This document shows, piece by piece, positions 2,088 through 10,367 of a stretch of 11,007 bases of DNA (positions are counted from its first letter, which is position 1; each line of letters starts with the position of its first letter). Origin of the DNA: a virus (Duplodnaviria > Heunggongvirae > Uroviricota > Caudoviricetes); IMG/VR virus record IMGVR_UViG_3300029577_000220, positions 1-11,007 of that record, one strand, 5' to 3'. The notes below the pieces were generated by a model that worked only from the letters and a program-made list of their open reading frames with translations, was not told the DNA's origin and did no database searches. The position numbers and the translations under genes are program-made.

Positions 2088-2477
2088 ATGGCTACCAACG
2101 AAACAAAAGAAGCTAAAGTAAGTCGCTACGCTGCTTACATTGACGCTTTAATCGCGATTTCTCCGAAAAGCCAGGCGACCATCGCGAAAGAAGCAGGCTA
2201 TAAAAACCCTAACAATCTTTCACTTATCAAGAGCGGCAAAATCCCGCTTCCGATCGACAAGGTCAGAGCGTTGGCTAAAGCATTGGATGCCGATTCGGTC
2301 CGATTGATGCTAATGGTGCTGGAAGAGCGTCATCCAGAGCTGTTAGCGTTTTTTCGCGACGAAGGCACAGCCCCTCTGACTAAAGATGAAAAACTAGTTC
2401 TGGAAGCCTTCCGTCGACGTTTCGGTGACCAACGTGGTGCGTCGGAGCGGGTTGTTGAGGCAATCAAGTCGCTATGA
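2088..2477 (+). CDS. XRE/Cro-CI-type helix-turn-helix transcriptional regulator (129 aa from ATG 2088; the track ORF begins at an upstream in-frame TTG at 2079).
   Basis: HTH_3-like segment SQATIAKEAGYKNPNNLSLIKSGKIPLPIDKVRALAKALDAD; AGGT ~9 nt upstream of ATG 2088; AT-rich upstream region; convergent with the integrase and overlapping its 3' end by 6 bp. Confidence 0.65.
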   Translation: MATNETKEAKVSRYAAYIDALIAISPKSQATIAKEAGYKNPNNLSLIKSGKIPLPIDKVRALAKALDADSVRLMLMVLEERHPELLAFFRDEGTAPLTKDEKLVLEAFRRRFGDQRGASERVVEAIKSL

Positions 2478-3575
2478 GAAATTTACACGGATTAGCTCAG
2501 TAGCGAGTCGATCTCCCTTGAACTTATGATCTATCTCCTCTAAATCCTGTTTCTCTACGATTGATGCGATGTACGCCGAAAAACTGTTTAAGGCGTCTCG
2601 CATCTCGTCTATATAATCGTGTCGATCGTATACTCGATCTATCCCCTCAAGACTGTGGTTCATAATTTTGCGGGATACCTCCTGACTTATGCCTAACGCG
2701 GGGAAGTAACTACGCGCAGTACGACGCAAATCTCGGGGAGTAAATGGCTCAAGCTCCATCAACTCTGGACGTTCTAAAATCCTTCTCAACGCCTGTGATA
2801 TGGCCACCTTAGACATTGGCACATCCTCACCCTGTTTCTTGTTTGAAGGAACAAGCCACTGGCTGCCTTTTCCGTATTTGATCAGCTCCTCAACACATTT
2901 GCGCATTAGCGGGCTTAATGGTAACGAGTGCTGGCGAGCCGATTTATTCCTCGTTCCTTGATTCCATAAATTATATTCGAGGTTGAATTCTGATCTTTTA
3001 GCTCGGAGCACTTCATCTGGTCGTCTGGCCGCTACAAGGCATAATCTGGCCGCCCACTTTGTACCCTCACATACGTTGAAGTAGTCCCATACATTCCAAA
3101 AGACCCAGACCTCTGCGTCGGTCAGTTTGCGCTCGCGCGGCGTGGGCTTCGCGCCACCGGCTACTCTGTTAAGCGACATATCGTTCAATGGGGATGTATC
3201 AATTAAGCCCTGAAATGCACACCAACTGAGAAACTGCTTCATCAGCGAGAACACACGTCTGCCCTGGACGATCTTGCCCTCAAGTATTAATGGGTTCACC
3301 AGCTGGTTGACTAAAACCCTACTAATATCACTTACTTTTACTTCACAGATATGCGGCATTACATGTATCAAAATACAATGAACAGCTATTTCAGGTCGAC
3401 GTCTCGTTATCAGCAAAGATAAGCGAGTGAATAACATGAATGCGGAAGAAAACGACATATCACCGTCGAAATTGGTGGTCGACACTGCTGACAAACCGGA
3501 AGCGCGTTCGAGATACTCGATGGCTTCTCTAGAGGTGTTTTCTGCTGCGCGTGCTTTATCAAAAGTGTTTTTCAT
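2472..3575 (-). CDS. int: Tyrosine recombinase/integrase, P4-like family, lacking the N-terminal arm-binding (DUF4102-type) domain; possibly a truncated remnant.
   Basis: C-terminal catalytic region FTPRDLRRTARSYFPALGISQEVSRKIMNHSLEGIDRVYDRHDYID matches the integrase box II / R..Y architecture; core-binding region ISRVLVNQLVNPLILEGKIVQGRRVFSLMKQFLSWCAFQGLID matches the P4-integrase core-binding pattern. The region upstream of 3575 (3576-3874) is AT-rich and non-coding, so no arm-binding domain is encoded. Confidence 0.85.
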   Translation of the reverse strand: MKNTFDKARAAENTSREAIEYLERASGLSAVSTTNFDGDMSFSSAFMLFTRLSLLITRRRPEIAVHCILIHVMPHICEVKVSDISRVLVNQLVNPLILEGKIVQGRRVFSLMKQFLSWCAFQGLIDTSPLNDMSLNRVAGGAKPTPRERKLTDAEVWVFWNVWDYFNVCEGTKWAARLCLVAARRPDEVLRAKRSEFNLEYNLWNQGTRNKSARQHSLPLSPLMRKCVEELIKYGKGSQWLVPSNKKQGEDVPMSKVAISQALRRILERPELMELEPFTPRDLRRTARSYFPALGISQEVSRKIMNHSLEGIDRVYDRHDYIDEMRDALNSFSAYIASIVEKQDLEEIDHKFKGDRLATELIRVNFS

Positions 3576-3672
3576 AGTCCACTCACTGAGTGAAGCCTGT
3601 TTTTACTGTATTTATAAACAGTATGTTAGGCCTAAGTTTTGTATGATCAACAGTAAAATAGACTGTTTTTGA

Positions 3673-3707
3673 AAATGATTCCATACCTTACAAGTATGGA
3701 ATCATTT
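3673..3707. promoter_or_regulatory. Perfect 14-bp inverted repeat AAATGATTCCATAC-N7-GTATGGAATCATTT in the integrase upstream region; candidate operator/recombinase-binding site.
   Basis: Arms 3673-3686 and 3694-3707 are exact reverse complements; the arm core GTATGGAATCAT recurs at 5326-5337 and 6346-6357. Confidence 0.45.
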
Positions 3708-3874
3708 ATATAGCTTACGTAAATTCTGAATAAATTATGTAGACAAACCATCTTAAACGCTAAATAGTAAAAAGCGCCTAATAACGCCAACTTTGGAATG
3801 CCATCTGAGCCAGATTGATGAGAATGATTTGTTAGAAGAAAAAGAATGATGAAGAAGATGACGATCGCTAAAGT

Positions 3875-4291
3875 TCAGCTAGAATGGAAACCTTCTGCGA
3901 CTTCAGCGAAGTAGCTGAGCAACCTAGTATCTCTTGCTGGCATACGATCGTGAGCTGGAGTGACTAGCCCCATCAGCAAAAAACGCCCGCTATCCCACAT
4001 GTGCTCGGTATAAACGAGATAGTGGTTTGAGGTTCGGTTGTAGTTCTCTTGCCTTGCGTTCCAGGTAAGCTGGAAATGCAAATTGACGTGAATATGCTGG
4101 ACATTAGCATCAACGGCGAACGGCGGGAAGTCAAATGGCGCATCTCGTCCAAGAAGATTAGATGGTGCGCCAGTTGATTTGTAAGTAATGAACTCGGATT
4201 TGAGCTGACTTTCTAGGTCAGGGTAAACGACAAAAGTGGGCTGAAAAAAATCATCCCACGTAACTTGACTGTATTCAGCCGTTAATGCCAT
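3875..4291 (-). CDS. YafO-family toxin (ribosome-dependent mRNA interferase type), 138 aa.
   Basis: Block-wise resemblance to E. coli YafO recalled from memory: FITYKSTGAPSNLLGRDAPFDF vs FISYKRDGVLPDIFGRDALYDD; VQHIHV vs VAHIHL; RTSNHYLVYTE vs RTNDEAHLVYCQ; FLLMGLVTPAHDRMPARD vs WLLIAILKPEPHKLARD; AEGF vs AEAF. Start ATG 4289-4291 overlaps the upstream gene's last codons by 10 nt. Confidence 0.7.
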   Translation of the reverse strand: MALTAEYSQVTWDDFFQPTFVVYPDLESQLKSEFITYKSTGAPSNLLGRDAPFDFPPFAVDANVQHIHVNLHFQLTWNARQENYNRTSNHYLVYTEHMWDSGRFLLMGLVTPAHDRMPARDTRLLSYFAEVAEGFHSS

Positions 4292-4830
4292 TTAGCCGCA
4301 GCCTTGTTGCCAGTCTCTAATAGATGGTTCATGGCTAAAAGGTTGACACCAGAGTCACGCACTACAGAAGTGCGTGTAATCTGATCAATCAGATTGAGAT
4401 AGTTTTTGGTCGCAATACTGACCATTTTAATAGCCTTAAAAAACGCAAACTCAACAGTGTTTTTTTCGTAAGACATGATGACGTCTTTTTCAGGTAACAT
4501 CAAAACAAAAGATTCTGCGATACCGGCTACATGAATAGTTTGATTCTTAATTTCTTCCGCTACTTTGATAGCAGCAAAGAAGTCAGTGTCAGCATAATGA
4601 GCAAGTTCAGCGCGGCTTGAACGCAGTTCTTTAGCCAATTCATTGAGAGCAGCTGTAAGATCACTGATGTCGGTTTTGTTGACTCTAGCGCCCATCTCAT
4701 AAACCCGTTCTACAATCGTAGGCTGACACGCAACCGCTTTGGGTTGCGGCTGGATACTGGCAAGAACCAGTGCCACTGCTGCCTGCAAATGCTGGATTTT
4801 AAATTTCACGATAGACTCCATAATCGTCAT
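4282..4830 (-). CDS. Hypothetical 182-aa protein translationally coupled to the YafO-like toxin; putative cognate antitoxin/partner, not YafN/RelB-like.
   Basis: ORF with ATG at 4828-4830; stop TAA 4282-4284 overlaps the start of the YafO-like gene; no recognisable RelB/DinJ/YafN-like sequence and roughly twice the size of YafN. Confidence 0.6.
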   Translation of the reverse strand: MTIMESIVKFKIQHLQAAVALVLASIQPQPKAVACQPTIVERVYEMGARVNKTDISDLTAALNELAKELRSSRAELAHYADTDFFAAIKVAEEIKNQTIHVAGIAESFVLMLPEKDVIMSYEKNTVEFAFFKAIKMVSIATKNYLNLIDQITRTSVVRDSGVNLLAMNHLLETGNKAAAKWH

Positions 4831-4908
4831 TTCTCGACGAAGCGTAGCATTCTACTACTGAACTTAACTATAAGCTAAAAAAAGTTGGTTGCATATGCGA
4901 CTTGATAG

Positions 4909-4929
4909 CAAAAAGGGGCCGAAGCCCCT
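4909..4929 (-). terminator. Rho-independent terminator downstream of tRNA-Asn (minus-strand sense GGGGC-UUCG-GCCCC followed by UUUUU).
   Basis: Plus strand 4910-4932 aaaaaggggccgaagcccctttg: 5-bp GC stem, UUCG tetraloop on the minus strand, T-run on the minus strand (A-run 4910-4914 on plus). Confidence 0.55.
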
Positions 4930-5005
4930 TTGGATTTTGCGCTGAAAAAAGTGTTGCTACGATGCTTAGAAGCAATGGTTAAAAAACGTCTGCCGTGTCT
5001 ATCAC

Positions 5006-5080
5006 AGCGCTGAACGGTCTGGCGACATTTGCGGAGTCTTTCGTTCGGACGGTGGTGGCGAATCCAAACCGTTCAGCGCT
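5006..5080. other. Long hairpin: 13-bp perfect inverted repeat (AGCGCTGAACGGT / ACCGTTCAGCGCT) enclosing 49 nt, immediately 3' of the tRNA; possible structured RNA or degenerate tRNA-like element.
   Basis: Arms 5006-5018 and 5068-5080 are exact reverse complements; the enclosed sequence does not fold as a cloverleaf by hand. Confidence 0.35.
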
Positions 5081-5084
5081 ATGT

Positions 5085-5159
5085 TGGCGATGGTGGGTGG
5101 ACTCGAACCACCGACCAGTTGATTAACAGTCAACCGCTCTACCACTGAGCTACACCATC
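5085..5159 (-). tRNA. tRNA-Asn (anticodon GUU), 75 nt with encoded CCA.
   Basis: Minus-strand sequence GATGGTGTAGCTCAGTGGTAGAGCGGTTGACTGTTAATCAACTGGTCGGTGGTTCGAGTCCACCCACCATCGCCA folds by hand: acceptor GATGGTG/CACCATC, D-stem GCTC/GAGC, anticodon stem GTTGA/TCAAC with loop CTGTTAA, T-stem GGTGG/CCACC with loop TTCGAGT, discriminator G, CCA. Confidence 0.85.
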
Positions 5160-5408
5160 ATTTTCGCGGCGGTACTAGCTTATGGACAACCAGGCAGCCA
5201 GAAACTTTCCCGTAACTTGCACTTTACGTTAGTGCCAGACGAGGTATGTGGCTCGCTCATATGAGCGAAGATCTCGAATCTTTCTCGGTGGTTGATTGCC
5301 GTTAGATTCTTCGATCTTATTGGATGTATGGAATCATACATGTTGTGAAGCCAGGGGCAATAAAGGCAACAATGTTTTCACTAGAGGGTTAATTAATCCT
5401 GCTTTCAC

Positions 5409-5518
5409 AACGTTGAGATCACTGAACCGATTAATGTTCAACCCAACATATTGATCAGTCGCTACAGCTATGTGGAATCGCCTGTATGATTTTAAGAAAA
5501 ATCAGTGATCTCAACGTT
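5409..5518. repeat. 17-bp perfect inverted repeat (AACGTTGAGATCACTGA ... TCAGTGATCTCAACGTT) separated by 76 bp in the non-coding region between the tRNA and the small-gene cluster; candidate structured ncRNA, origin-like element or MITE-like remnant.
   Basis: Arms 5409-5425 and 5502-5518 are exact reverse complements; no convincing ORF in 5160-5900. Confidence 0.4.
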
Positions 5519-5883
5519 ATGTGCTGACTAACCAAGTCAGCCGGGTTACGTCGCCGCTTTTAACCCAAGTATAAACGACATAAGTAATGGAAATGACGTA
5601 ACAGAATGGACGGTCAGCTGAAACCGGGATGGGTGAATGGAATGATGAAACCAACCGCCCATTCTGTTACTTCATTGAATGGGGCATGGATGGTGCAATA
5701 TGCCCTATTCTGCGTTCTGCAATCACACTCGCTCAGTGTGTCCCATTTTGGTGACGAGGCTGGAAACTGACCTCGCTGGTGTTTGGCTTCTTAGGCTACT
5801 GCCAGGTATGCATCTTCGTTTGCAGTTATATTTAACGTTCAAACAGTCGCATCTCAACGAAAACAAAGTGATCTTATACATAT

Positions 5884-5909
5884 TAGATAAGTAAGTAAAT
5901 ACTTATCTA
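5884..5909. promoter_or_regulatory. Palindromic site TAGATAAGTA-AGTAAA-TACTTATCTA overlapping the stop of the 5903..6208 gene; shares the 11-mer ATAAGTAAGTA with sites at 10811-10821 and 8582-8592 (reverse complement).
   Basis: 10-bp arms 5884-5893 and 5900-5909 are reverse complements; the 11-mer recurs at two other loci, both 5' of minus-strand genes. Confidence 0.4.
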
Positions 5910-6208
5910 TCTGTGATGCGTTTAGTTGCTATCTTTTTGATCAGGCTCCCCTTTTGTTCCGAAGTTCTCATGATGATGGCGGTAAAACGCTTCGCTTGAA
6001 TAGTGATAGTTTCGTTTTCCTTGAGTTCGCCGTAATGCGTCTCTAACAGGGACCCCAGACGCCACAGACCGTCGTCTATGCGTTTATGGCTGGCGAATCT
6101 GATCAGCAGTAGCTTTACGATTAACTGACCAATGTAAAAGGCAAATCCGAAGCCGGCCGCCACAAGGTAGGTTGCCAGCCACCAGTCGAAGGAAGTCAAA
6201 TTGCTCAT
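5903..6208 (-). CDS. Hypothetical small membrane protein (101 aa).
   Basis: ORF with ATG 6206-6208; hydrophobic segment WWLATYLVAAGFGFAFYIGQLIVKLLLI; start overlaps the stop of the upstream 50-aa ORF (ATGA). Confidence 0.5.
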   Translation of the reverse strand: MSNLTSFDWWLATYLVAAGFGFAFYIGQLIVKLLLIRFASHKRIDDGLWRLGSLLETHYGELKENETITIQAKRFTAIIMRTSEQKGSLIKKIATKRITDR

Positions 6209-6357
6209 TTTCGCACTCCCGTCTCGTGAACAACCCGATACACACGCTTACCGACACGAAGTGTTTTGGTTTGCAGTTCCTGCTGGACCAGGGCGCGGCA
6301 GATTGCGAGGCCGAGGCCCACGCCACCAGTAAAAGATAAAATGATGTATGGAATCAT
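6205..6357 (-). CDS. Hypothetical 50-aa protein with a hydrophobic N-terminus (MIPYIILSFTGGVGLGLAICRALVQQ...); not in the supplied ORF track (below the size cutoff).
   Basis: Hand translation: ATG at 6355-6357 overlaps the TGA of the 6357..6569 gene (TGATG), and its own TGA (6205-6207) overlaps the ATG of the 5903..6208 gene (ATGA). Confidence 0.3.
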   Translation of the reverse strand: MIPYIILSFTGGVGLGLAICRALVQQELQTKTLRVGKRVYRVVHETGVRK

Positions 6358-6569: not shown

Positions 6570-6729
6570 CCTTAATCTCCTTCAGTGTGTCCGTGATATC
6601 TACTATGCGATAAATACGACCTCGCCTTTGCATGACACCGGCTTTTACGTAATCGTGGATACAGCTGGACATAACCAGACTTCCGATAACAATGCCGACG
6701 ACTAAAAATACAAACATCCAGCCGAGCAT
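6553..6729 (-). CDS. Hypothetical 58-aa protein with an N-terminal transmembrane helix (MLGWMFVFLVVGIVIGSLVM...); not in the supplied ORF track.
   Basis: Hand translation: ATG at 6727-6729 shares one base with the ligase stop codon (TGATG); TAA at 6553-6555 lies inside the start of the next gene. Confidence 0.3.
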   Translation of the reverse strand: MLGWMFVFLVVGIVIGSLVMSSCIHDYVKAGVMQRRGRIYRIVDITDTLKEIKDEHVK

Positions 6730-8051
6730 CATTCTTTATCTCCAATACGATCTTCGGTATCTCGAAGACATTTAGGCCACTTCAGACGTGGATGACGCAA
6801 GCTACCATCTGGCGTTTTCTCATGGCAGTGAACCTCAACGATGCGTCCACGATACTTCTCCTGATTGTTCCAGATTTCATCCAGGTATTTATGCTTGATA
6901 CCGCTGGCACGAACGATGACGCCGTTCTCCAGACGAATCACTATCTTGCCTAGCGTATGCGCAAATCCAGAATCCGGATCGCCAGGCTCGAAGTCGATGA
7001 TTTCACCGTCTTCTGAATCCTCGTCTTTCAGCTTCCACCAGCTGCGGGTACGTTTGAACTCGTAAACTGAATCCGGATCTTTGCCCATCTCTCCCTCTTC
7101 ATTCTCGTCCAGTCGCTTCATGAAACGTTCGATGAAATCTTCGTGGCTATGGATGATGTAGAACGGATGAAGGTGGATATCTTGCGCATAATCTTCCACG
7201 CAAGTGTTGCGGAACAACGCCACCAGCATAGCCAGGCGCTCTTTCAGCTTCATACCGGTCTTCAGGTACTCTTTGCTTTTTGCTTGAGCACGCCACTCCG
7301 GTAAGAAGAAATCGAAAATGTGGTAAACGGCACCAATGGCTTTCACGTTCTTCTTACGAAGCGCCGACACTGACTGGTTGAATGTACCTGCAGTGCCCTC
7401 TCCATCGAAGAAGATGTGATTGAAGCCGGAGAGTCTGCCCCGCTCCAGCATGGCTGGTTTAAGGTGATCGAGTGACGTAATCGGATTGCCGGTGCGCGTC
7501 AGGAAATTGACCTCACCCTCGTCCACGATGACTTCGCAGATAACCCGGAGACCATCGAGTTTGAGACTGCCGATCATTGGCCACTTGGCCTTTGGATTTG
7601 GTTTAAATGGGTATTTGTCGCCTTTCTCCTTGTACGGAGACGCCAGCTGTACCTCAAACTTCGGAATTGGGTTTTCGAACACCTTGTTGCACAGGCTGAT
7701 GCCGACACCGGCTTTCGGATCTTTCAGCAGGAAGCGACGAAACACGTCCTGCCCGTCAGCGCACATCGAGGCAACGAGTGATTCGACAGCAGCAATAGCG
7801 ATGTTCCCGGTCAGTTCGCGCGCTGCCAGCTTCTCCAGCAGATCTACTACCTTCTGGTCGCTGGGTACGGAAGTATCGAGTGGCTCGGCCACTTTGTACT
7901 TCTTCACACCGAATCGAATGAATGGATTGAGCATTAGCGAGACCATGCTCTGTTCAAATTCATCCAGATTGGCCAGCGCCTCTTTCTTGGCGTTGGTTCC
8001 CATCGTTTTAATAGCATCCAGCTTGTGCTTTAGGGCGATCAGTTTTTCCAT
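6729..8051 (-). CDS. ATP-dependent DNA ligase, T7-like (phage-type), 440 aa, with an ~80-aa N-terminal extension.
   Basis: Nucleotidyltransferase motif I KLDGLR; motif III FFDGEG; motifs IV-V EGEMGKDPDSVYEFKRTRSWWKLK (compare T7 ligase EGLIIKDP...SGWWKMK from memory); C-terminal motif VI TPDGSLRHPRL...RD. GGAGG Shine-Dalgarno 9 nt upstream of the ATG at 8051. Confidence 0.9.
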   Translation of the reverse strand: MEKLIALKHKLDAIKTMGTNAKKEALANLDEFEQSMVSLMLNPFIRFGVKKYKVAEPLDTSVPSDQKVVDLLEKLAARELTGNIAIAAVESLVASMCADGQDVFRRFLLKDPKAGVGISLCNKVFENPIPKFEVQLASPYKEKGDKYPFKPNPKAKWPMIGSLKLDGLRVICEVIVDEGEVNFLTRTGNPITSLDHLKPAMLERGRLSGFNHIFFDGEGTAGTFNQSVSALRKKNVKAIGAVYHIFDFFLPEWRAQAKSKEYLKTGMKLKERLAMLVALFRNTCVEDYAQDIHLHPFYIIHSHEDFIERFMKRLDENEEGEMGKDPDSVYEFKRTRSWWKLKDEDSEDGEIIDFEPGDPDSGFAHTLGKIVIRLENGVIVRASGIKHKYLDEIWNNQEKYRGRIVEVHCHEKTPDGSLRHPRLKWPKCLRDTEDRIGDKE

Positions 8052-9153: not shown

Positions 9154-9480
9154 ATGACTAAAAATACTCGTTTTTCCCCCGAAGTCCGTCAGCGGGCGAT
9201 TCGTATGGTTCTGGAAAGTCAGGATGAATATGACTCACAGTGGGCGGCAATTTGTTCCATTGCCCCAAAGATTGGCTGTACGCCGGAGACTCTGCGTGTC
9301 TGGGTTCGCCAGCATGAGCGGGATACCGGGGGCGGTGATGGTGGGCTCACCAGCGCTGAACGTCAGCGTCTGAAAGAGCTGGAACGTGAAAATCGTGAAC
9401 TGCGCCGCAGTAACGATATCCTTCGCCAGGCTTCCGCTTATTTTGCGAAGGCGGAGTTCGACCGCCTCTGGAAAAAATGA
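9154..9480 (+). CDS. IS629 transposase OrfA (HTH and leucine-zipper part), 108 aa.
   Basis: [23 protein letters not shown]... is typical of IS629/IS1203-group OrfA; ends ...LWKK* at the A6 run 9472-9477, the expected -1 frameshift window. Confidence 0.9.
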
Positions 9481-10367
9481 TGCCACTGCTGGATAAGCTG
9501 CGTGAGCAGTACGGGGTCGGACCGGTATGCAGCGAACTGCATATTGCCCCGTCAACGTATTACCATTGTCAGCAACAGCGACATCATCCGGATAAACGCA
9601 GTGCCCGTGCGCAGCACGACGACTGGCTGAAGAGAGAGATACAGCGCGTATACGATGAAAATCATCAGGTGTACGGTGTGCGTAAAGTCTGGCGTCAGTT
9701 GTTACGGGAAGGAATCAGGGTGGCCAGATGTACAGTGGCACGTCTCATGGCGGTTATGGGACTTGCCGGTGTTCTCCGGGGTAAAAAGGTCCGTACGACC
9801 ATCAGCCGGAAAGCCGTTGCCGCAGGCGACCGCGTAAACCGTCAGTTCGTGGCAGAACGACCTGACCAGCTGTGGGTGGCTGATTTTACTTACGTCAGCA
9901 CATGGCAGGGCTTCGTCTATGTGGCGTTTATCATTGATGTGTTTGCCGGATACATCGTGGGGTGGCGGGTCTCATCGTCTATGGAAACGACATTCGTGCT
10001 GGATGCGCTGGAGCAGGCGTTGTGGGCCCGTCGTCCGTCTGGCACCATCCATCACAGCGATAAAGGCTCTCAGTATGTGTCACTGGCCTATACGGAGCGA
10101 CTAAAAGAAGCCGGATTACTGGCATCAACAGGGAGTACAGGCGACTCGTATGACAACGCGATGGCTGAGAGCATCAATGGTCTTTACAAAGCGGAGGTAA
10201 TACACCGTAAGAGCTGGAAAAACCGTGCAGAAGTGGAACTGGCCACACTAACGTGGGTGGACTGGTATAACAATCGACGATTGCTGGGAAGGCTGGGCCA
10301 TACTCCTCCGGCAGAAGCAGAAAAAGCTTATTATGCTTCCATCGGAAACGATGATCTGGCAGCCTGA
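9477..10367 (+). CDS. IS629 transposase OrfB (DDE/rve catalytic domain), 296 aa; expressed as an OrfAB fusion by -1 frameshifting.
   Basis: rve-type motifs [58 protein letters not shown]; overlaps orfA by 4 nt in the -1 frame. Confidence 0.9.

What the first reader, a model, noticed from the sequence alone, without database searches (positions are those of the whole stretch)
5006..5518. Inverted-repeat-rich non-coding region next to the tRNA: candidate structured RNAs or origin
Between the tRNA and the small-gene cluster lie a 13-bp-stem hairpin of tRNA length (5006-5080) and a 17-bp perfect inverted repeat pair spaced by 76 bp (5409-5518), with no convincing ORF over ~740 bp. Such regions in phages often hold sRNAs, tRNA-like remnants or replication origins.
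Basis: seen in the sequence. Interest (0 to 1): 0.45.

Follow-up and report, generated by a model that had tools for sequence, protein, structure and literature searches.

The report
Phage tmRNA-like RNA and tRNA operon
The "empty" 740 bases are not a replication origin: they are the body of a conserved, highly structured phage RNA operon on the opposite strand, and its front end looks like the tag-coding part of a tmRNA, an element that goes unannotated in the held records of many enterobacterial phages and in the plague and typhoid plasmids pMT1 and pHCM2.

Summary
A third, H3, lies at 5592-5676. All three fold best on the minus strand, keep pairing in relatives and show compensatory changes.

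The window is an SSU5/pHCM2/pMT1-type phage-plasmid. The stretch 5899->4910 (minus strand) reads as one non-coding transcription unit:
- an operator-like palindrome and a promoter-like site;
- a 150-nt module, nearly invariant;
- a chain of conserved hairpins ending in H2;
- tRNA-Asn;
- H1;
- an intrinsic terminator.

H1 and H2 belong to a family of long hairpins with a CACARC...GYUGUG base. In relatives these start 1-2 nt after tRNA CCA ends, so they are probably RNA processing or stability elements.

The 150-nt module resembles the mRNA-like domain of a tmRNA:
- UA at -5/-4;
- a GCA resume codon and a start-less ten-codon tag, ANEDAYLAVA* (E. coli: ANDENYALAA);
- the stop codon in a small helix;
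- then a covarying pseudoknot.

Homologues lie in P1 (ban operon leader), HK620 and in N4-, FelixO1- and Vi01-like phages, mostly in tRNA islands and none labelled as such in the records I examined. No tRNA-like domain was found, so tmRNA membership is unproven. Origin signatures are absent.

The parts
5884..5909 (.). Palindrome TAGATAAGTA-N6-TACTTATCTA, overlapping the stop codon of the upstream gene and the -35 region. Candidate repressor operator.
   Evidence: I6. Core GATAAGTA..TACTTATC is conserved in all clades. The role is inferred by analogy with the C1 operator Op72 over Pban in P1.
5871..5899 (-). Promoter-like site: -35 TTTACT (5899-5894), 17-nt spacer, -10 TAAGAT (5876-5871). The predicted start is near 5864.
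   Evidence: Read from the sequence. TGTATAAGAT is nearly invariant. Homologues in other phages have TTGACA-17-TAAGAT, TAATCT or TAGATT at the same distance before GUUUUCG. It scores 8/12, below the scanner's cut-off of 9/12.
5715..5864 (-). tmRNA-like module: GUUUUCGU... through the pseudoknot and hairpin Pc. This is the most conserved part of the region.
   Evidence: Near-invariance in 56 distinct sequences. nhmmer hits in P1-like and other phages, E 8.6e-15 to 4.5e-7. 173 phage records by blastn. Sub-threshold tmRNA-family hits.
5791..5828 (-). U(5828)A(5827)ACU, then resume-like codon GCA (5823-5821), tag template GCA AAC GAA GAU GCA UAC CUG GCA GUA GCC = ANEDAYLAVA, stop UAA (5793-5791). 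There is no start codon, and an in-frame UGA lies at 5841-5839.
   Evidence: Sequence. 17 nucleotide versions in relatives, with synonymous changes in the last codons. Compared with E. coli ssrA, UAGUC|GCA.. ANDENYALAA**. The role of U85/A86 is from PMC2481249.
5777..5805 (-). Small helix CUGG(5805-5802)/CCAG(5780-5777) holding the end of the tag and the stop codon, in the manner of tmRNA helix 5.
   Evidence: Predicted. In distant homologues it reads UGGC/GCCA or UGGU/GCCA. Weakly supported.
5741..5775 (-). H-type pseudoknot. Stem 1 is CGAGG (5775-5771) / CCUCG (5759-5755). Stem 2 is the loop UUCC (5765-5762) with GGGA (5744-5741).
   Evidence: RNAalifold on 12 diverse sequences proposed stem 2 on its own. 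Counts on A5: stem 1 98.3% paired with one compensatory pair; stem 2 86.7% paired with 3 of 4 pairs changed on both sides (UUCC/GGGA, CCAG/CUGG, CCGA/UCGG, GUCG/CGAC). Overall 93.3% paired against 40-65% when slid.
5724..5740 (-). Hairpin Pc, CACACU-GAGCG-AGUGUG.
   Evidence: Invariant in the SSU5 family. It becomes CGCACUG..CGGUGUG with G-U pairs in distant homologues.
5677..5710 (-). Hairpin Pe, GAAUAGGGCAU...AUGCCCCAUUC, with a variable loop.
   Evidence: 99-100% of cells paired. Four pairs changed on both sides (GGGCAU/AUGCCC, GAACAU/AUGUUC, GAGCAU/AUGCUC).
5592..5676 (-).
   Evidence: z = -7.25; 24 pairs, 98.2% of cells paired, 2 pairs changed on both sides, 7 pairs with G-U variants.
5523..5583 (-). 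Hairpins Pf (5583-5574 / 5555-5546) and Pg (5541-5535 / 5529-5523).
   Evidence: Pf 99.8% paired; Pg 91.6% paired with one compensatory pair (GCUGAC/GUCAGC versus GCUGGC/GCCAGC).
5406..5521 (-). An 18-20-bp stem with base CAUAAC...GUUGUG and a 76-nt loop of variable sequence.
   Evidence: 18 pairs, 98.8% of cells paired, 3 pairs changed on both sides. Member of the CACARC..GYUGUG hairpin family.
5342..5411 (-). Alternative or adjacent helix GUUGUGAA...UUCACAAC. It shares GUUGUG with the 3' arm of H2 and closes a small domain.
   Evidence: I4. The downstream CACAAC is conserved in all clades, and AAAGCAGG/CCUGGCUU becomes AAGACAGG/CCUGUUUU. Equivalent closing stems occur in P1 (GUUGUGA..UCACAAC) and in HK620, swi2 and UPM2146 (UGUGGUG..CACCACA). 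Function unknown.
5326..5337 (-). Invariant 12-mer AUGAUUCCAUAC inside the leader.
   Evidence: four copies in the window against 0.04 expected. The others are the two arms of a 14-7-14 palindrome at 3673-3707 upstream of the integrase, and the start of the 50-aa ORF at 6346-6357.
5085..5159 (-). tRNA-Asn (GUU), with CCA encoded.
   Evidence: 76.2 bits.
5003..5083 (-). A 20-bp stem with base CAUAGC...GCUGUG that starts 1 nt after the tRNA's CCA.
   Evidence: z = -6.6; 20 pairs in 19 distinct sequences, 2 compensatory pairs, unrelated loops in L092 and L122; this family starts 1-2 nt after tRNA-Asn, -Thr, -Ser or -His ends in more than 150 instances (redundant loci).
4910..4932 (-). Intrinsic terminator CAAAGGGGC-UUCG-GCCCCUUUUU. 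This is the end of the conserved unit; variable cargo starts beyond it.
   Evidence: Sequence. Conserved in nearly all relatives. In most relatives homology to the window ends at 4907-4910.

Best explanation
The two inverted repeats are RNA hairpins inside a roughly 1-kb non-coding transcription unit on the minus strand (about 5864 -> 4910). The unit is conserved as a block in SSU5/pHCM2/pMT1-type phage-plasmids.

Inferred course of events:
1. A promoter overlapped by an operator-like palindrome fires. This is inferred by analogy with the C1-controlled Pban/Op72 promoter that heads the homologous unit in phage P1.
2. The transcript starts with a 150-nt module built like the mRNA-like domain of a tmRNA. 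It has U/A at -5/-4, a GCA resume codon, a ten-codon start-less tag template (ANEDAYLAVA*), the stop codon in a small helix, and then a pseudoknot.
3. A chain of conserved hairpins follows (Pc, Pe, H3, Pf, Pg), ending in the long hairpin H2.
4. A less conserved spacer follows, then tRNA-Asn.
5. H1 starts one nucleotide after the tRNA's CCA, and a canonical terminator closes the unit.

H1 and H2 are two members of a family of 65-120-nt hairpins. Members share only their base (CACARC...GYUGUG) and a 16-20-bp stem. I take them to be processing or stability elements. They are double-stranded substrates long enough for RNase III, or hairpins removable by RNase P or PNPase as some E. coli tRNA terminators are. 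On this view they define the 3' ends of the tRNAs and separate the upstream structured RNA from them.

What is shown:
- the structures, their strand and their conservation;
- the pseudoknot covariation;
- the tag-like frame;
- the architecture and its homologues.

What is inferred:
- that the unit is transcribed;
- which nuclease acts on the hairpins;
- that the tag template is actually decoded.
For: **Identity of the replicon.** The region is 99.9% identical to an E. coli IncFIB phage-plasmid and 91% identical to phage SSU5 and to pHCM2. The core is present in 773 plasmids.

**Strand.**
- Every neighbouring gene and the tRNA are on the minus strand.
- Minus-strand RNA folds are 10-40 kcal/mol more stable than plus-strand folds in relatives.
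- In the helices, 782 cells in 30 pairs are G-U on the minus strand, against 73 cells in 7 pairs that are A-C.
- Four of the five mismatches in the three strand-neutral inverted repeats are G-U on the minus strand.

**Conserved pairing.** The structure gives 90.6% paired cells, against 34-46% with partners slid. It has 135 cells changed on both sides, against 9-34 when slid. H1 has 20 pairs with 2 compensatory pairs.

**Hairpin family.** The motif CACARCGYTGAR occurs only at the four arms of H1 and H2 in the window: 4 hits against 0.49 expected. In relatives, hairpins with the same base but different inner stems start 1-2 nt after tRNA-Thr, -Ser, -Asn or -His CCA ends.

**Boundaries of the unit.** The terminator is conserved, and homology to the window ends just past it.

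**tmRNA-like module.**
- The tag frame and the UA at -5/-4 are read directly from the sequence. They compare with E. coli ssrA and with PMC2481249.
- There are 17 nucleotide versions. The last codon is GCC, GCU or GCA, always Ala. HK620, phiEa104, Sf13, UPM2146 and SP-076 carry ANEEMYLAVA, ANDAQFLAVA, ANDNVFLAVA, ANDNTFLAVA and ANDDVVLMSA.
- The pseudoknot covaries.
- The only Rfam families that recur at this element are tmRNA models, in seven phages. All hits are below threshold, with E from 0.003 to 0.55.
- ARAGORN, with thresholds lowered to 85-90%, calls permuted tmRNAs with exactly these tags in 9 of 14 loci.

**Homologous unit in P1.** The order is Pban/Op72, 'dicF-like region', this module, a CACAAC hairpin, trnA, trnT, a CACAAC hairpin.
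Against: - There are no expression data. A Y. pestis sRNA-seq study lists two pMT1 sRNAs, and neither lies here.
- The promoter is weak by consensus (8/12) and was not flagged by the scanner.
- No tRNA-like domain was found. ARAGORN at default settings finds no tmRNA. Rfam hits stay below the gathering scores. At relaxed thresholds ARAGORN borrows neighbouring tRNAs or coding sequence for the tRNA-like domain, and it also yields false positives.
- The candidate acceptor-like stems have no G3-U70 pair and no encoded CCA.
- An unconstrained search for loop-to-downstream complementarity did not beat a cross-family control, 4.5 against 4.4 bp. Only the fixed-register count supports the pseudoknot.
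- Within the SSU5 family most of the 150-nt module never varies, so its helices there are untestable.
- The excess of synonymous changes in the tag frame is modest: 136/364 against 105/358 and 39/375 in the other two frames.
- The nuclease that would act on H1 and H2 is a guess.
Confidence: 0.6

Rival explanations
1. Split or tandem tmRNA. On this reading the CACARC hairpins are not mere processing signals. They are, or derive from, the tRNA-like partner of the tag module: an acceptor-like stem extended by leader-trailer pairing. Module plus hairpin would then form a complete but unconventional trans-translation RNA.
For: - In HK620, swi2 and UPM2146 the module is followed directly by a CACAAC hairpin. 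After that comes a roughly 90-nt domain closed by a perfect 7-bp stem, UGUGGUG/CACCACA.
- The hairpin loops of swi2 and L218 and the post-Thr hairpin of P1 contain canonical T-arm sequences (GGCGGUUCGACUCCGC, GAGGGUUCGAAUCCCU) right before the 3' arm.
- The Rfam 'tmRNA_permuted' model gives full-length sub-threshold hits: E 0.006 in Sf13, 0.011 in P1 and 0.056 in SP-076.
Against: - H1 and H2 of this window have no T-arm, and neither does the HK620 hairpin.
- No G3-U70 pair and no encoded CCA were seen.
- The same hairpins follow ordinary tRNAs that need no partner.
- ARAGORN's placements of the tRNA-like domain are inconsistent.
Confidence: 0.2
2. Decaying relic. The module is a fragment of a host ssrA gene captured by an ancestral phage. 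It survives without function, and the hairpins are neutral palindromes.
For: - The tag is close to the enterobacterial ANDENYALAA.
- No tRNA-like domain was found.
- No transcript data exist.
Against: - The module is more conserved than the neighbouring protein gene. It is near-invariant where that protein is 72-79% identical.
- It persists in phage families as different as Punavirus, Lederbergvirus, Ounavirinae, Schitoviridae, Ackermannviridae and Chaseviridae. It usually has its own promoter-like site.
- The tag length and the hydrophobic, Ala-rich C-terminus are kept.
- The pseudoknot stems covary.
Confidence: 0.08
3. DNA-level element. This would be a lytic replication origin or a single-strand initiation (primosome assembly) site in which hairpins form in single-stranded DNA.
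For: - The region sits among replication genes: ligase, primase, polymerase.
- Strand-specific G-T pairs would also fit a single-stranded DNA hairpin.
- In P1 the homologous unit heads the operon of ban, a replicative helicase gene.
Against: - There are no DnaA boxes, no iterons or tandem repeats and no AT-rich stretch.
- A pseudoknot with covarying stems and a conserved start-less reading frame have no place in an origin.
- The hairpins abut mature tRNA 3' ends and sit between a promoter-like site and a terminator.
- The element also occurs inside tRNA islands and in the late leader of HK620.
Confidence: 0.05
4. Recombination sites or mobile palindromes. The hairpins would be attC-like or MITE-like DNA elements that shuffle tRNA cassettes.
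For: - The hairpins have conserved ends (..AAC / GTT..), variable interiors and variable lengths, as attC sites do.
- tRNA content varies between relatives.
- A tyrosine recombinase gene lies 1.5 kb away.
Against: - The recombinase is not an integron integrase, and it has its own 14-7-14 palindrome.
- The stems are continuous, with no unpaired central spacer or consistent extrahelical bases.
- H1 has AGC/GCT instead of AAC/GTT.
- The one rearrangement I could trace (L070) is a recombination between tRNA T-loops, not at a hairpin.
- Copies do not share internal sequence as MITE copies do.
Confidence: 0.04
5. A small protein is encoded. The candidate is the plus-strand ORF 5679-5894 (MGHGWCNMPYSAFCNHTRSVCPILV...), whose core stays open in all clades.
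For: The frame ...PAFCNHTRSVCPI(S/L)VTRLETDLAGVWL... is uninterrupted in every relative examined.
Against: - Substitutions show no third-position bias.
- The C-terminal third is frame-shifted between clades by 1-nt indels.
- Among 5.8 billion protein clusters only 8 tiny clusters match and none is distant, so gene callers almost never call it.
- The changes at its start are the compensatory changes of hairpin Pe.
Confidence: 0.03

Closest known systems
tmRNA (SsrA), mRNA-like domain with helix 5 and pseudoknot 2
   Same: - U and A at -5 and -4 before a GCA resume codon.
- A start-less ten-codon template whose product (ANEDAYLAVA and variants) parallels ANDENYALAA.
- The stop codon lies in a short helix.
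- An H-type pseudoknot follows directly.
- Weak similarity also runs upstream into the PK1 region (GGCGGUU..AAA).
   Different: - No recognisable tRNA-like domain, no G3-U70 pair and no 3' CCA.
- The RNA seems to start at a promoter only about 40 nt before the resume codon, where E. coli has 89 nt holding the acceptor strand and PK1.
- Not detected at the standard thresholds of ARAGORN or Rfam.
- Not among the phage ssrA genes found by an exhaustive search of 543 phage genomes (PMC4131195).
Leader of the C1-controlled ban operon of phage P1 (Pban/Op72, 'dicF-like region', trnA, trnT)
   Same: True homologue of the unit. It has the same module (nhmmer), the same order (module, CACAAC hairpin, tRNA-Asn, (tRNA-Thr), CACAAC hairpin) and the same strand logic.
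   Different: - P1 has an extra 'dicF-like' segment with its own terminator-like hairpin before the module.
- P1 runs on into tciABC, trnI and ban, where the window's unit stops at a terminator.
- The P1 record annotates only the dicF-like part. Neither P1 nor the window matches the Rfam DicF model.
T4 RNAC and RNAD, small stable RNAs of the T4 tRNA region
   Same: Non-coding RNAs transcribed with phage tRNA genes, of unknown role (PMC3014915; PMC9697503).
   Different: No sequence relationship was tested or seen. The T4 RNAs are discrete 120-140-nt species (my recollection). Cleavage of T4 species I RNA by RNase III is also my recollection of 1970s work and was not checked here.
ROOL and GOLLD large ornate RNAs
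   Same: Large, multi-helix RNAs with pseudoknots, encoded by phages and prophages, often next to tRNA islands and sometimes with tRNAs embedded (PMC12286853).
   Different: - No match to either Rfam model, even at E = 10.
- Different hosts (Enterobacterales and Aeromonas).
- This RNA carries a tag-like reading frame.
RNase III processing hairpins of phage polycistronic transcripts (T7, lambda), and terminator hairpins removed from E. coli tRNA precursors by RNase P or PNPase
   Same: Stems of about 20 bp with no U-tract, placed at the boundaries of functional RNAs. H1 begins 1 nt after CCA.
   Different: Cleavage was not tested. The shared CACARC/GYUGUG base has no known counterpart in those systems. 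Both precedents are cited from my own knowledge.

Membership tests
tmRNA (SsrA) | tRNA-like domain: acceptor stem with G3-U70, T-arm, 3' CCA | tested here: not met
   ARAGORN at default settings finds no tmRNA. The candidate closing stems GUUGUGA/UCACAAC and UGUGGUG/CACCACA lack G3-U70 and an encoded CCA. At relaxed thresholds ARAGORN assigns the halves of the tRNA-like domain to neighbouring tRNAs or to coding sequence.
tmRNA (SsrA) | Resume codon preceded by conserved U(-5) A(-4); short reading frame with no start codon | tested here: met
   UAACU|GCA at 5828-5821. An in-frame UGA lies five codons upstream and there is no ATG, GTG or TTG in between. Relatives read UAAAU|GCA. The reference is UAGUC|GCA in E. 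coli.
tmRNA (SsrA) | Tag peptide of about 10 residues with a hydrophobic, Ala-rich C-terminus, kept at the amino-acid level | tested here: met
   ANEDAYLAVA, and 16 other nucleotide versions in held loci. The last codon is GCC, GCU or GCA. Further variants occur in HK620, Sf13, phiEa104, UPM2146 and SP-076. The excess of synonymous changes in this frame is modest.
tmRNA (SsrA) | Pseudoknots flanking the tag template | tested here: inconclusive
   The downstream pseudoknot is supported by covariation. No upstream PK1 could be shown: the Pa helices are invariant or shift register.
tmRNA (SsrA) | Scores above the curated thresholds of the tmRNA covariance models or of ARAGORN | tested here: not met
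   The best hits are 29.9 bits (gathering score 47) for tmRNA_permuted and 16.3 bits (47) for RF00023. The window scores 14.7 bits (84) for beta_tmRNA.
ROOL / GOLLD | Match to RF03087 or RF01998 | tested here: not met
   No hit at E <= 10 on 4880-5960 or at E <= 1 on the whole window.
DicF sRNA (the name used in the P1 record for the neighbouring segment) | Match to the DicF covariance model | tested here: not met
   No DicF hit in the window or in the P1 leader. The window has no counterpart of P1's dicF-like segment, and homology starts at GUUUUCG.
tRNA or tRNA remnant (H1) | Cloverleaf detectable by ARAGORN or by the Rfam tRNA model | tested here: not met
   Only tRNA-Asn at 5085-5159 is found. 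H1 is one continuous 20-bp stem.
Intrinsic (Rho-independent) terminator | GC-rich stem directly followed by a U-tract | tested here: not met
   Not met for H1 and H2, which have no U-run after the 3' arm. Met by the separate element at 4910-4932, GGGGC-UUCG-GCCCC-UUUUU.
RNase III substrate | About two turns (>= 20 bp) of nearly perfect double-stranded RNA; cleavage by the enzyme | not testable with these tools
   The length criterion is met: H1 20 bp, H2 18-20 bp, H3 26 bp. Cleavage cannot be tested here.
Replication origin | Initiator binding repeats (DnaA boxes or iterons) and an AT-rich unwinding element | tested here: not met
   No DnaA box within one mismatch in the region, no tandem repeats, no multi-copy direct repeats, and G+C of 0.42-0.46 with no dip.
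Integron attC site | IntI integrase nearby; R''/L''...L'/R' boxes with an unpaired spacer and extrahelical bases | tested here: not met
   The integrase matches only generic Phage_integrase and no integron-integrase model. The stems are continuous, and H1 has AGC/GCU instead of AAC/GUU.

The most novel reading that the evidence does not exclude
Enterobacterial phages and phage-plasmids carry a so far uncatalogued RNA gene: a tmRNA analogue with no conventional tRNA-like domain, or with one supplied by the adjacent CACAAC hairpin domain. The carriers seen here include P1, HK620, N4-, FelixO1- and Vi01-like phages, SSU5, pHCM2 of S. Typhi and pMT1 of Y. pestis. The RNA is made from its own promoter next to tRNA genes. 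During infection or induction it would redirect or compete with host trans-translation, for instance by adding a phage-specific tag (…LAVA / …VAA) to stalled chains, or by titrating SmpB, S1 or RNase R.
Probability: 0.35. Interest if true: 0.85.

Novelty: new variant of a known kind. Interest (0 to 1): 0.72.

Why it matters
- Trans-translation is universal in bacteria, and several phages need it. Lambda-P22 hybrids and Mu are the cases I recall.
- In the survey I could read, phage-borne ssrA was known only from mycobacteriophages and Bacillus phage G (PMC4131195).
- If the tag-template module is functional, there would be an unrecognised layer of phage control over ribosome rescue and protein tagging. 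It is conserved in classic model phages and in plasmids of the plague and typhoid agents, yet goes unlabelled in the records I examined.
- The question is directly testable, because P1 and HK620 are genetically tractable.
- Even on the modest reading, the result assigns 1 kb of 'empty' DNA, present in more than 770 sequenced plasmids, to a defined RNA operon.
- It also defines a hairpin family that marks tRNA 3' ends, and it shows that the F1 capsule locus of pMT1 sits inside this operon.

Tried and rejected
1. **Known RNA families.** Rfam at gathering scores and at E <= 10 gave only the tRNA and chance microRNA or snoRNA hits.
2. **Coding.** Third-position periodicity is absent. The persistent plus-strand ORF was examined and rejected.
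3. **Origin.** I looked for DnaA boxes, tandem repeats and composition signals and found nothing.
4. **Expression evidence.** The Y. pestis sRNA-seq tables list sR082 and sR083 on pMT1. I fetched both places and neither overlaps the homologue. Searches for pHCM2 or SSU5 transcript data found nothing.
5. **More distant relatives through the neighbouring 101-aa protein.** GTDB species representatives gave only 3 loci. Exact-motif scans with SSU5-specific blocks recovered only the same family. The breakthrough came from a profile (nhmmer) search of loci that had been fetched for another purpose.
6. **A multi-helix junction** (AAUGGGA/UUCCAUU) from the single-sequence fold. It is only 83% paired, has no compensation, and its 5' strand is better explained by the pseudoknot.
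7. **A long-range pairing** CUGGC/GCCAG proposed by RNAalifold. The local hairpin Pg explains the paired change better.
8. **An unconstrained complementarity score for the pseudoknot.** It did not separate real from cross-family pairs, so I replaced it with a fixed-register count.
9. **Retron ncRNA.** Considered because of the long stems, and dropped because Pfam found no reverse transcriptase in the 13 window ORFs I scanned; the remaining ORFs were not scanned.
10. **A tRNA-proximal promoter.** No hexamer pair is conserved between clades just upstream of tRNA-Asn.
11. **ARAGORN at lowered thresholds.** It recovers the tags but not a believable tRNA-like domain.
Full report
**1. The observation**

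The window has three long inverted repeats in the gene-free stretch next to tRNA-Asn (minus strand, 5159..5085).
- H1: 5003-5022 / 5064-5083.
- H2: 5406-5425 / 5502-5521.
- H3: 5592-5614 / 5654-5676.

Only five such repeats occur in the 11 kb, and three of them are here. As minus-strand RNA they fold with z = -6.6, -5.5 and -7.25 against dinucleotide shuffles. As plus-strand RNA the values are clearly weaker. The reading of it has to change strand.

**2. Context**

The region is 99.9% identical to an E. coli IncFIB phage-plasmid. It is about 91% identical to Salmonella phage SSU5 and to pHCM2 of S. Typhi, and 90% identical over its upstream two thirds to pMT1 of Y. pestis.

Every flanking gene is on the minus strand:
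- an ATP-dependent DNA ligase (6729-8051);
- four small ORFs;
- the 743-nt gap;
- tRNA-Asn, then H1;
- a GGGGC-UUCG-GCCCC-U5 terminator at 4932-4910;
- a cargo island with a YafO toxin pair and a tyrosine recombinase.

In almost all relatives, homology to the window stops at 4907-4910, just past the terminator. Beyond that point the cargo differs from plasmid to plasmid. The conserved block therefore runs from the stop codon of the 101-aa gene (5903) to the terminator.

**3. It is not coding and not an origin**

The gap is better conserved than the neighbouring protein. That protein is 72-79% identical in the Klebsiella and other distant clades, whereas long runs of the gap never vary.

Evidence against coding:
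- Variable sites show no three-base periodicity.
- One plus-strand ORF stays open in all clades. Its tail is frame-shifted between clades, and its few substitutions fall on all codon positions.
- A search of 5.8 billion protein clusters found only eight tiny, near-identical clusters for that ORF.

Evidence against an origin:
- There are no DnaA boxes, no iterons or tandem repeats and no AT-rich dip.

**4. Conserved structure on the minus strand**

I projected a curated set of helices onto an alignment of 56 distinct sequences.
- 90.6% of cells are paired, against 34-46% when partners are slid by one to three columns.
- 135 cells are changed on both sides, against 9-34 when slid.

| Helix | Cells paired | Pairs changed on both sides |
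|---|---|---|
| Pe (5710-5677) | 99-100% | 4 |
| H2 | 98.8% | 3 |
| H3 | 98.2% | 2 |
| Pf | 99.8% | none |
| Pg | 91.6% | 1 |

- H1, aligned separately from 19 distinct sequences, keeps all 20 pairs. It has two compensatory pairs, and two lineages have unrelated loops.
- Non-Watson-Crick cells are overwhelmingly G-U on the minus strand: 782 cells in 30 pairs, against 73 A-C cells in 7 pairs. One caveat applies: these helices were chosen by folding the minus strand.
- The strand-neutral repeats tell the same story. Four of their five mismatches are G-U on the minus strand.
- Whole-region folds are 10-40 kcal/mol better on the minus strand in relatives, although G and T content is balanced.

**5. 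H1 and H2 belong to a hairpin family tied to tRNA 3' ends**

- The 12-mer CACARCGYTGAR occurs in the window only at the four arms of H1 and H2: 4 hits against 0.49 expected.
- Relatives of the Klebsiella clade carry a tRNA array, Asn-Tyr-Thr-(gap)-Ser.
- They also carry further hairpins of 65-120 nt. These have the same base (CACARC...GYUGUG) and 16-20-bp stems, but quite different inner sequences.
- On the tRNA strand these hairpins start 1-2 nt after the CCA of tRNA-Thr, tRNA-Ser, tRNA-Asn or (once) a tRNA with a His anticodon. I counted more than 150 instances, many in redundant loci.
- H1 is the copy after the last tRNA. H2 is a copy in the leader.
- None is followed by a U-tract. The true terminator is a separate element.

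Stems of this length directly abutting mature tRNA ends point to RNA processing or protection. Which enzyme acts on them is an inference. Candidates are RNase III on about two turns of double-stranded RNA, or RNase P or PNPase, which remove some E. coli tRNA terminators. Those precedents are from my own knowledge.

**6. The unit reaches beyond the SSU5 family**

- A scan for 'tRNA T-arm, CCA, CACARC hairpin' in IMG/VR brought in contigs that lack BLAST similarity to the leader.
- A profile of the leader alignment then hit them. The hits have E from 8.6e-15 to 4.5e-7, lie on the tRNA strand, and in six of the seven contigs sit about 330-450 nt upstream of the tRNAs; in L179 the hit lies about 300 nt downstream of a tRNA-Met.
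- Some of these contigs are P1-like. In the annotated P1 genome the order is as follows:
  1. C1-controlled promoters P1ban/P2ban with operator Op72.
  2. A 'dicF-like region'.
  3. The homologue of the window's 5' module.
  4. A CACAAC hairpin.
  5. trnA (Asn) and trnT (Thr).
  6. A CACAAC...GUUGUG hairpin.
  7. tciABC, trnI and ban.
- A degenerate motif scan found the module in 91 IMG/VR contigs, and blastn found it in 173 phage records. The records include HK620, where it lies between pR'/qut and the late terminator tQ. They also include:
  - Ounavirinae (Sf13, phiEa104);
  - Schitoviridae (FSL SP-076);
  - Ackermannviridae (UPM 2146);
  - Chaseviridae (Aeromonas pAh6-C);
  - the siphovirus swi2.
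- In most of these it sits inside or beside a tRNA island. None of the records I examined annotates it as an RNA gene; most list no feature under the match, and a few only hypothetical proteins.
- In Sf13, phiEa104 and swi2 a sigma-70-type promoter ends 14 to 20 nt before the conserved GUUUUCG: TTGACA, 17 nt, then TAAGAT, TAATCT or TAGATT (sequences).
- The window has TTTACT-17-TAAGAT at the corresponding place but closer, ending 6 nt before GUUUUCG (5899-5871). It is overlapped by a conserved palindrome (5884-5909) that I read as an operator, by analogy with Op72.

**7. What the module looks like**

On the minus strand the window reads ...UGA ACG UUA AAU AUA ACU | GCA AAC GAA GAU GCA UAC CUG GCA GUA GCC UAA. 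This is a ten-codon frame, ANEDAYLAVA*. It has no start codon, and an in-frame stop lies five codons upstream (5841-5791).

- E. coli ssrA, fetched for comparison, reads UAGUC | GCA AAC GAC GAA AAC UAC GCU UUA GCA GCU UAA UAA (ANDENYALAA**).
- U85 and A86 of tmRNA are highly conserved. They lie five and four bases before the resume codon, and A86 sets the frame (PMC2481249). The window and all homologues that I read through this stretch have A at -4; most also have U at -5, while the Klebsiella clade of the SSU5 family has C there.
- Relatives carry these tags:
  - ANEDTYLAVA, ANEEVYLAVA and ANDNQYLAVA (SSU5 family);
  - ANDDLMMVAA (P1);
  - ANDDLMLAAA, ANEEMYLAVA (HK620), ANDNVFLAVA, ANDAQFLAVA, ANDNTFLAVA and ANDDVVLMSA.
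- The C-terminal codons change synonymously (GCC/GCU/GCA/GCG, GUA/GUG, GCA/GCC).
- The end of the tag and the stop codon lie in a small helix, CUGG...CCAG.
- An H-type pseudoknot follows directly. Its second stem reads UUCC/GGGA, CCAG/CUGG, CCGA/UCGG or GUCG/CGAC in different phage families.
  - RNAalifold proposed that stem unprompted.
  - A fixed-register count gives 93.3% paired cells against 40-65% when slid, with four of nine pairs changed on both sides.
  - An unconstrained complementarity score was not discriminating, so the support rests on the register.
- tmRNA models are the only Rfam families that recur at this element in seven phages. All hits are below threshold.
- ARAGORN finds nothing at default settings. 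With thresholds lowered to 90% and 85% it reports permuted tmRNAs with exactly these tags in 9 of 14 loci. It also reports some obvious false positives.

**8. What is missing**

I found no tRNA-like domain.
- The closing stems after the hairpins have no G3-U70 pair and no encoded CCA. These stems are GUUGUGA/UCACAAC in the window and P1, and UGUGGUG/CACCACA in HK620, swi2 and UPM2146.
- ARAGORN's relaxed calls borrow neighbouring tRNAs or coding sequence.
- Some sister hairpins (swi2, L218 and P1's post-Thr hairpin) do contain canonical T-arm sequences next to their 3' arm. That keeps open a split or tandem design. H1 and H2 of this window do not have them.

I therefore do not file the element as a tmRNA. 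It works like, or imitates, the tmRNA template. Whether it is decoded is untested.

An exhaustive ssrA survey of 543 phage genomes found ssrA only in mycobacteriophages, plus Bacillus phage G and a TLD-only gene in DS6A (PMC4131195). My literature searches found no description of this element. The library lacks most subscription journals, so this is not proof of novelty.

**9. Verdict**

They are RNA-level parts of a phage non-coding operon, not of an origin.
- The best-supported reading has three parts:
  - a promoter-to-terminator unit makes a structured RNA and tRNA-Asn;
  - H2 and H1 are boundary hairpins;
  - the 5' end is a tmRNA-like tag-template module shared with many unrelated enterobacterial phages.
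- Confidence is high for the RNA operon and its structures. It is moderate for a functional tmRNA-like role. It is low for the particular nuclease.

Noticed in passing
window 3673-3707, 5326-5337, 6346-6357: The 12-mer ATGATTCCATAC occurs four times, against 0.04 expected. Two copies are the arms of a perfect 14-7-14 palindrome about 100 bp upstream of the tyrosine recombinase gene (2472-3575), which looks like a lox/dif-type core site. One copy is in the RNA leader and is invariant in all clades. One copy is the first four codons (MIPY) of the 50-aa ORF 6205-6357. The full palindrome is present in 38 held loci from several clades.
   Followed up: partly
window 9154-10367, with 9435-9551: An IS3-family insertion sequence: two overlapping ORFs (9154-9480, 9477-10367) and a full-length ALIL frameshift pseudoknot (121.5 bits, E = 7.7e-32).
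   Followed up: no
window about 2400-4907: A cargo island is inserted just past the operon's terminator. It holds the recombinase, a YafO-family toxin (3875-4291) with its upstream partner (4282-4830), and small ORFs. SSU5 has none of it, and pHCM2 and Enterobacter plasmids carry other cargo at the same point (a class 1 integron in CP021897). The terminator marks a cargo hot spot.
   Followed up: partly
L072 (Y. pestis pMT) 1501-2020, equivalent to window 5900-5385: In pMT1 homology to the operon stops right after H2, and caf1R of the F1 capsule locus abuts it. The tRNA, H1 and the terminator are gone, but the tmRNA-like module, H3 and H2 remain at 90% identity.
   Followed up: partly
L020 3817-3891: One relative carries the same tRNA body with anticodon GUG instead of GUU. 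ARAGORN calls it tRNA-His. It is a single-base anticodon switch of the phage tRNA-Asn.
   Followed up: no
L070 3570-3644: A chimeric tRNA: the 5' two thirds are tRNA-Asn, and the 3' T-arm and acceptor strand are tRNA-Thr. It apparently arose by recombination between T-loops that deleted tRNA-Tyr. The CACAAC hairpin that normally follows Thr comes next.
   Followed up: no
window 5030-5039 (H1 loop): The motif AAGACUCCGC in the 3' half of the H1 loop is kept in 17 of 19 distinct H1 sequences, although the rest of the loop differs between clades. It may be a binding or pairing site.
   Followed up: no
window 5496-5511 and 5859-5874: A 16-nt direct repeat (GAAAAATCAGTGATCT / GAAAACAAAGTGATCT) links the outer arm of H2 with the predicted 5' end of the transcript. 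On the RNA, AGAUCACU near 5872-5865 could pair with AGUGAUCU of the 3' arm of H2. This holds only in the window's own clade, so it is probably chance.
   Followed up: partly
L242 (HK620) 1501-1618; L248 (swi2); L245 (UPM 2146): In these phages the module is followed by a CACAAC hairpin. After it comes a shared ~90-nt domain, GGUGAAUGCGCAGGCUGAUGCGCG...GCCGGAGAUCAGCGCCGGCCACCAC, closed by UGUGGUG/CACCACA. The domain is tRNA-sized and is not recognised by ARAGORN or Rfam.
   Followed up: partly
one held locus (not identified), listed: One contig carries a longer tag at the same kind of site, ANDNIEQFAPIALAA, ending in the canonical ALAA. It could be a more conventional tmRNA relative and a bridge between the phage module and cellular ssrA.
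   Followed up: no
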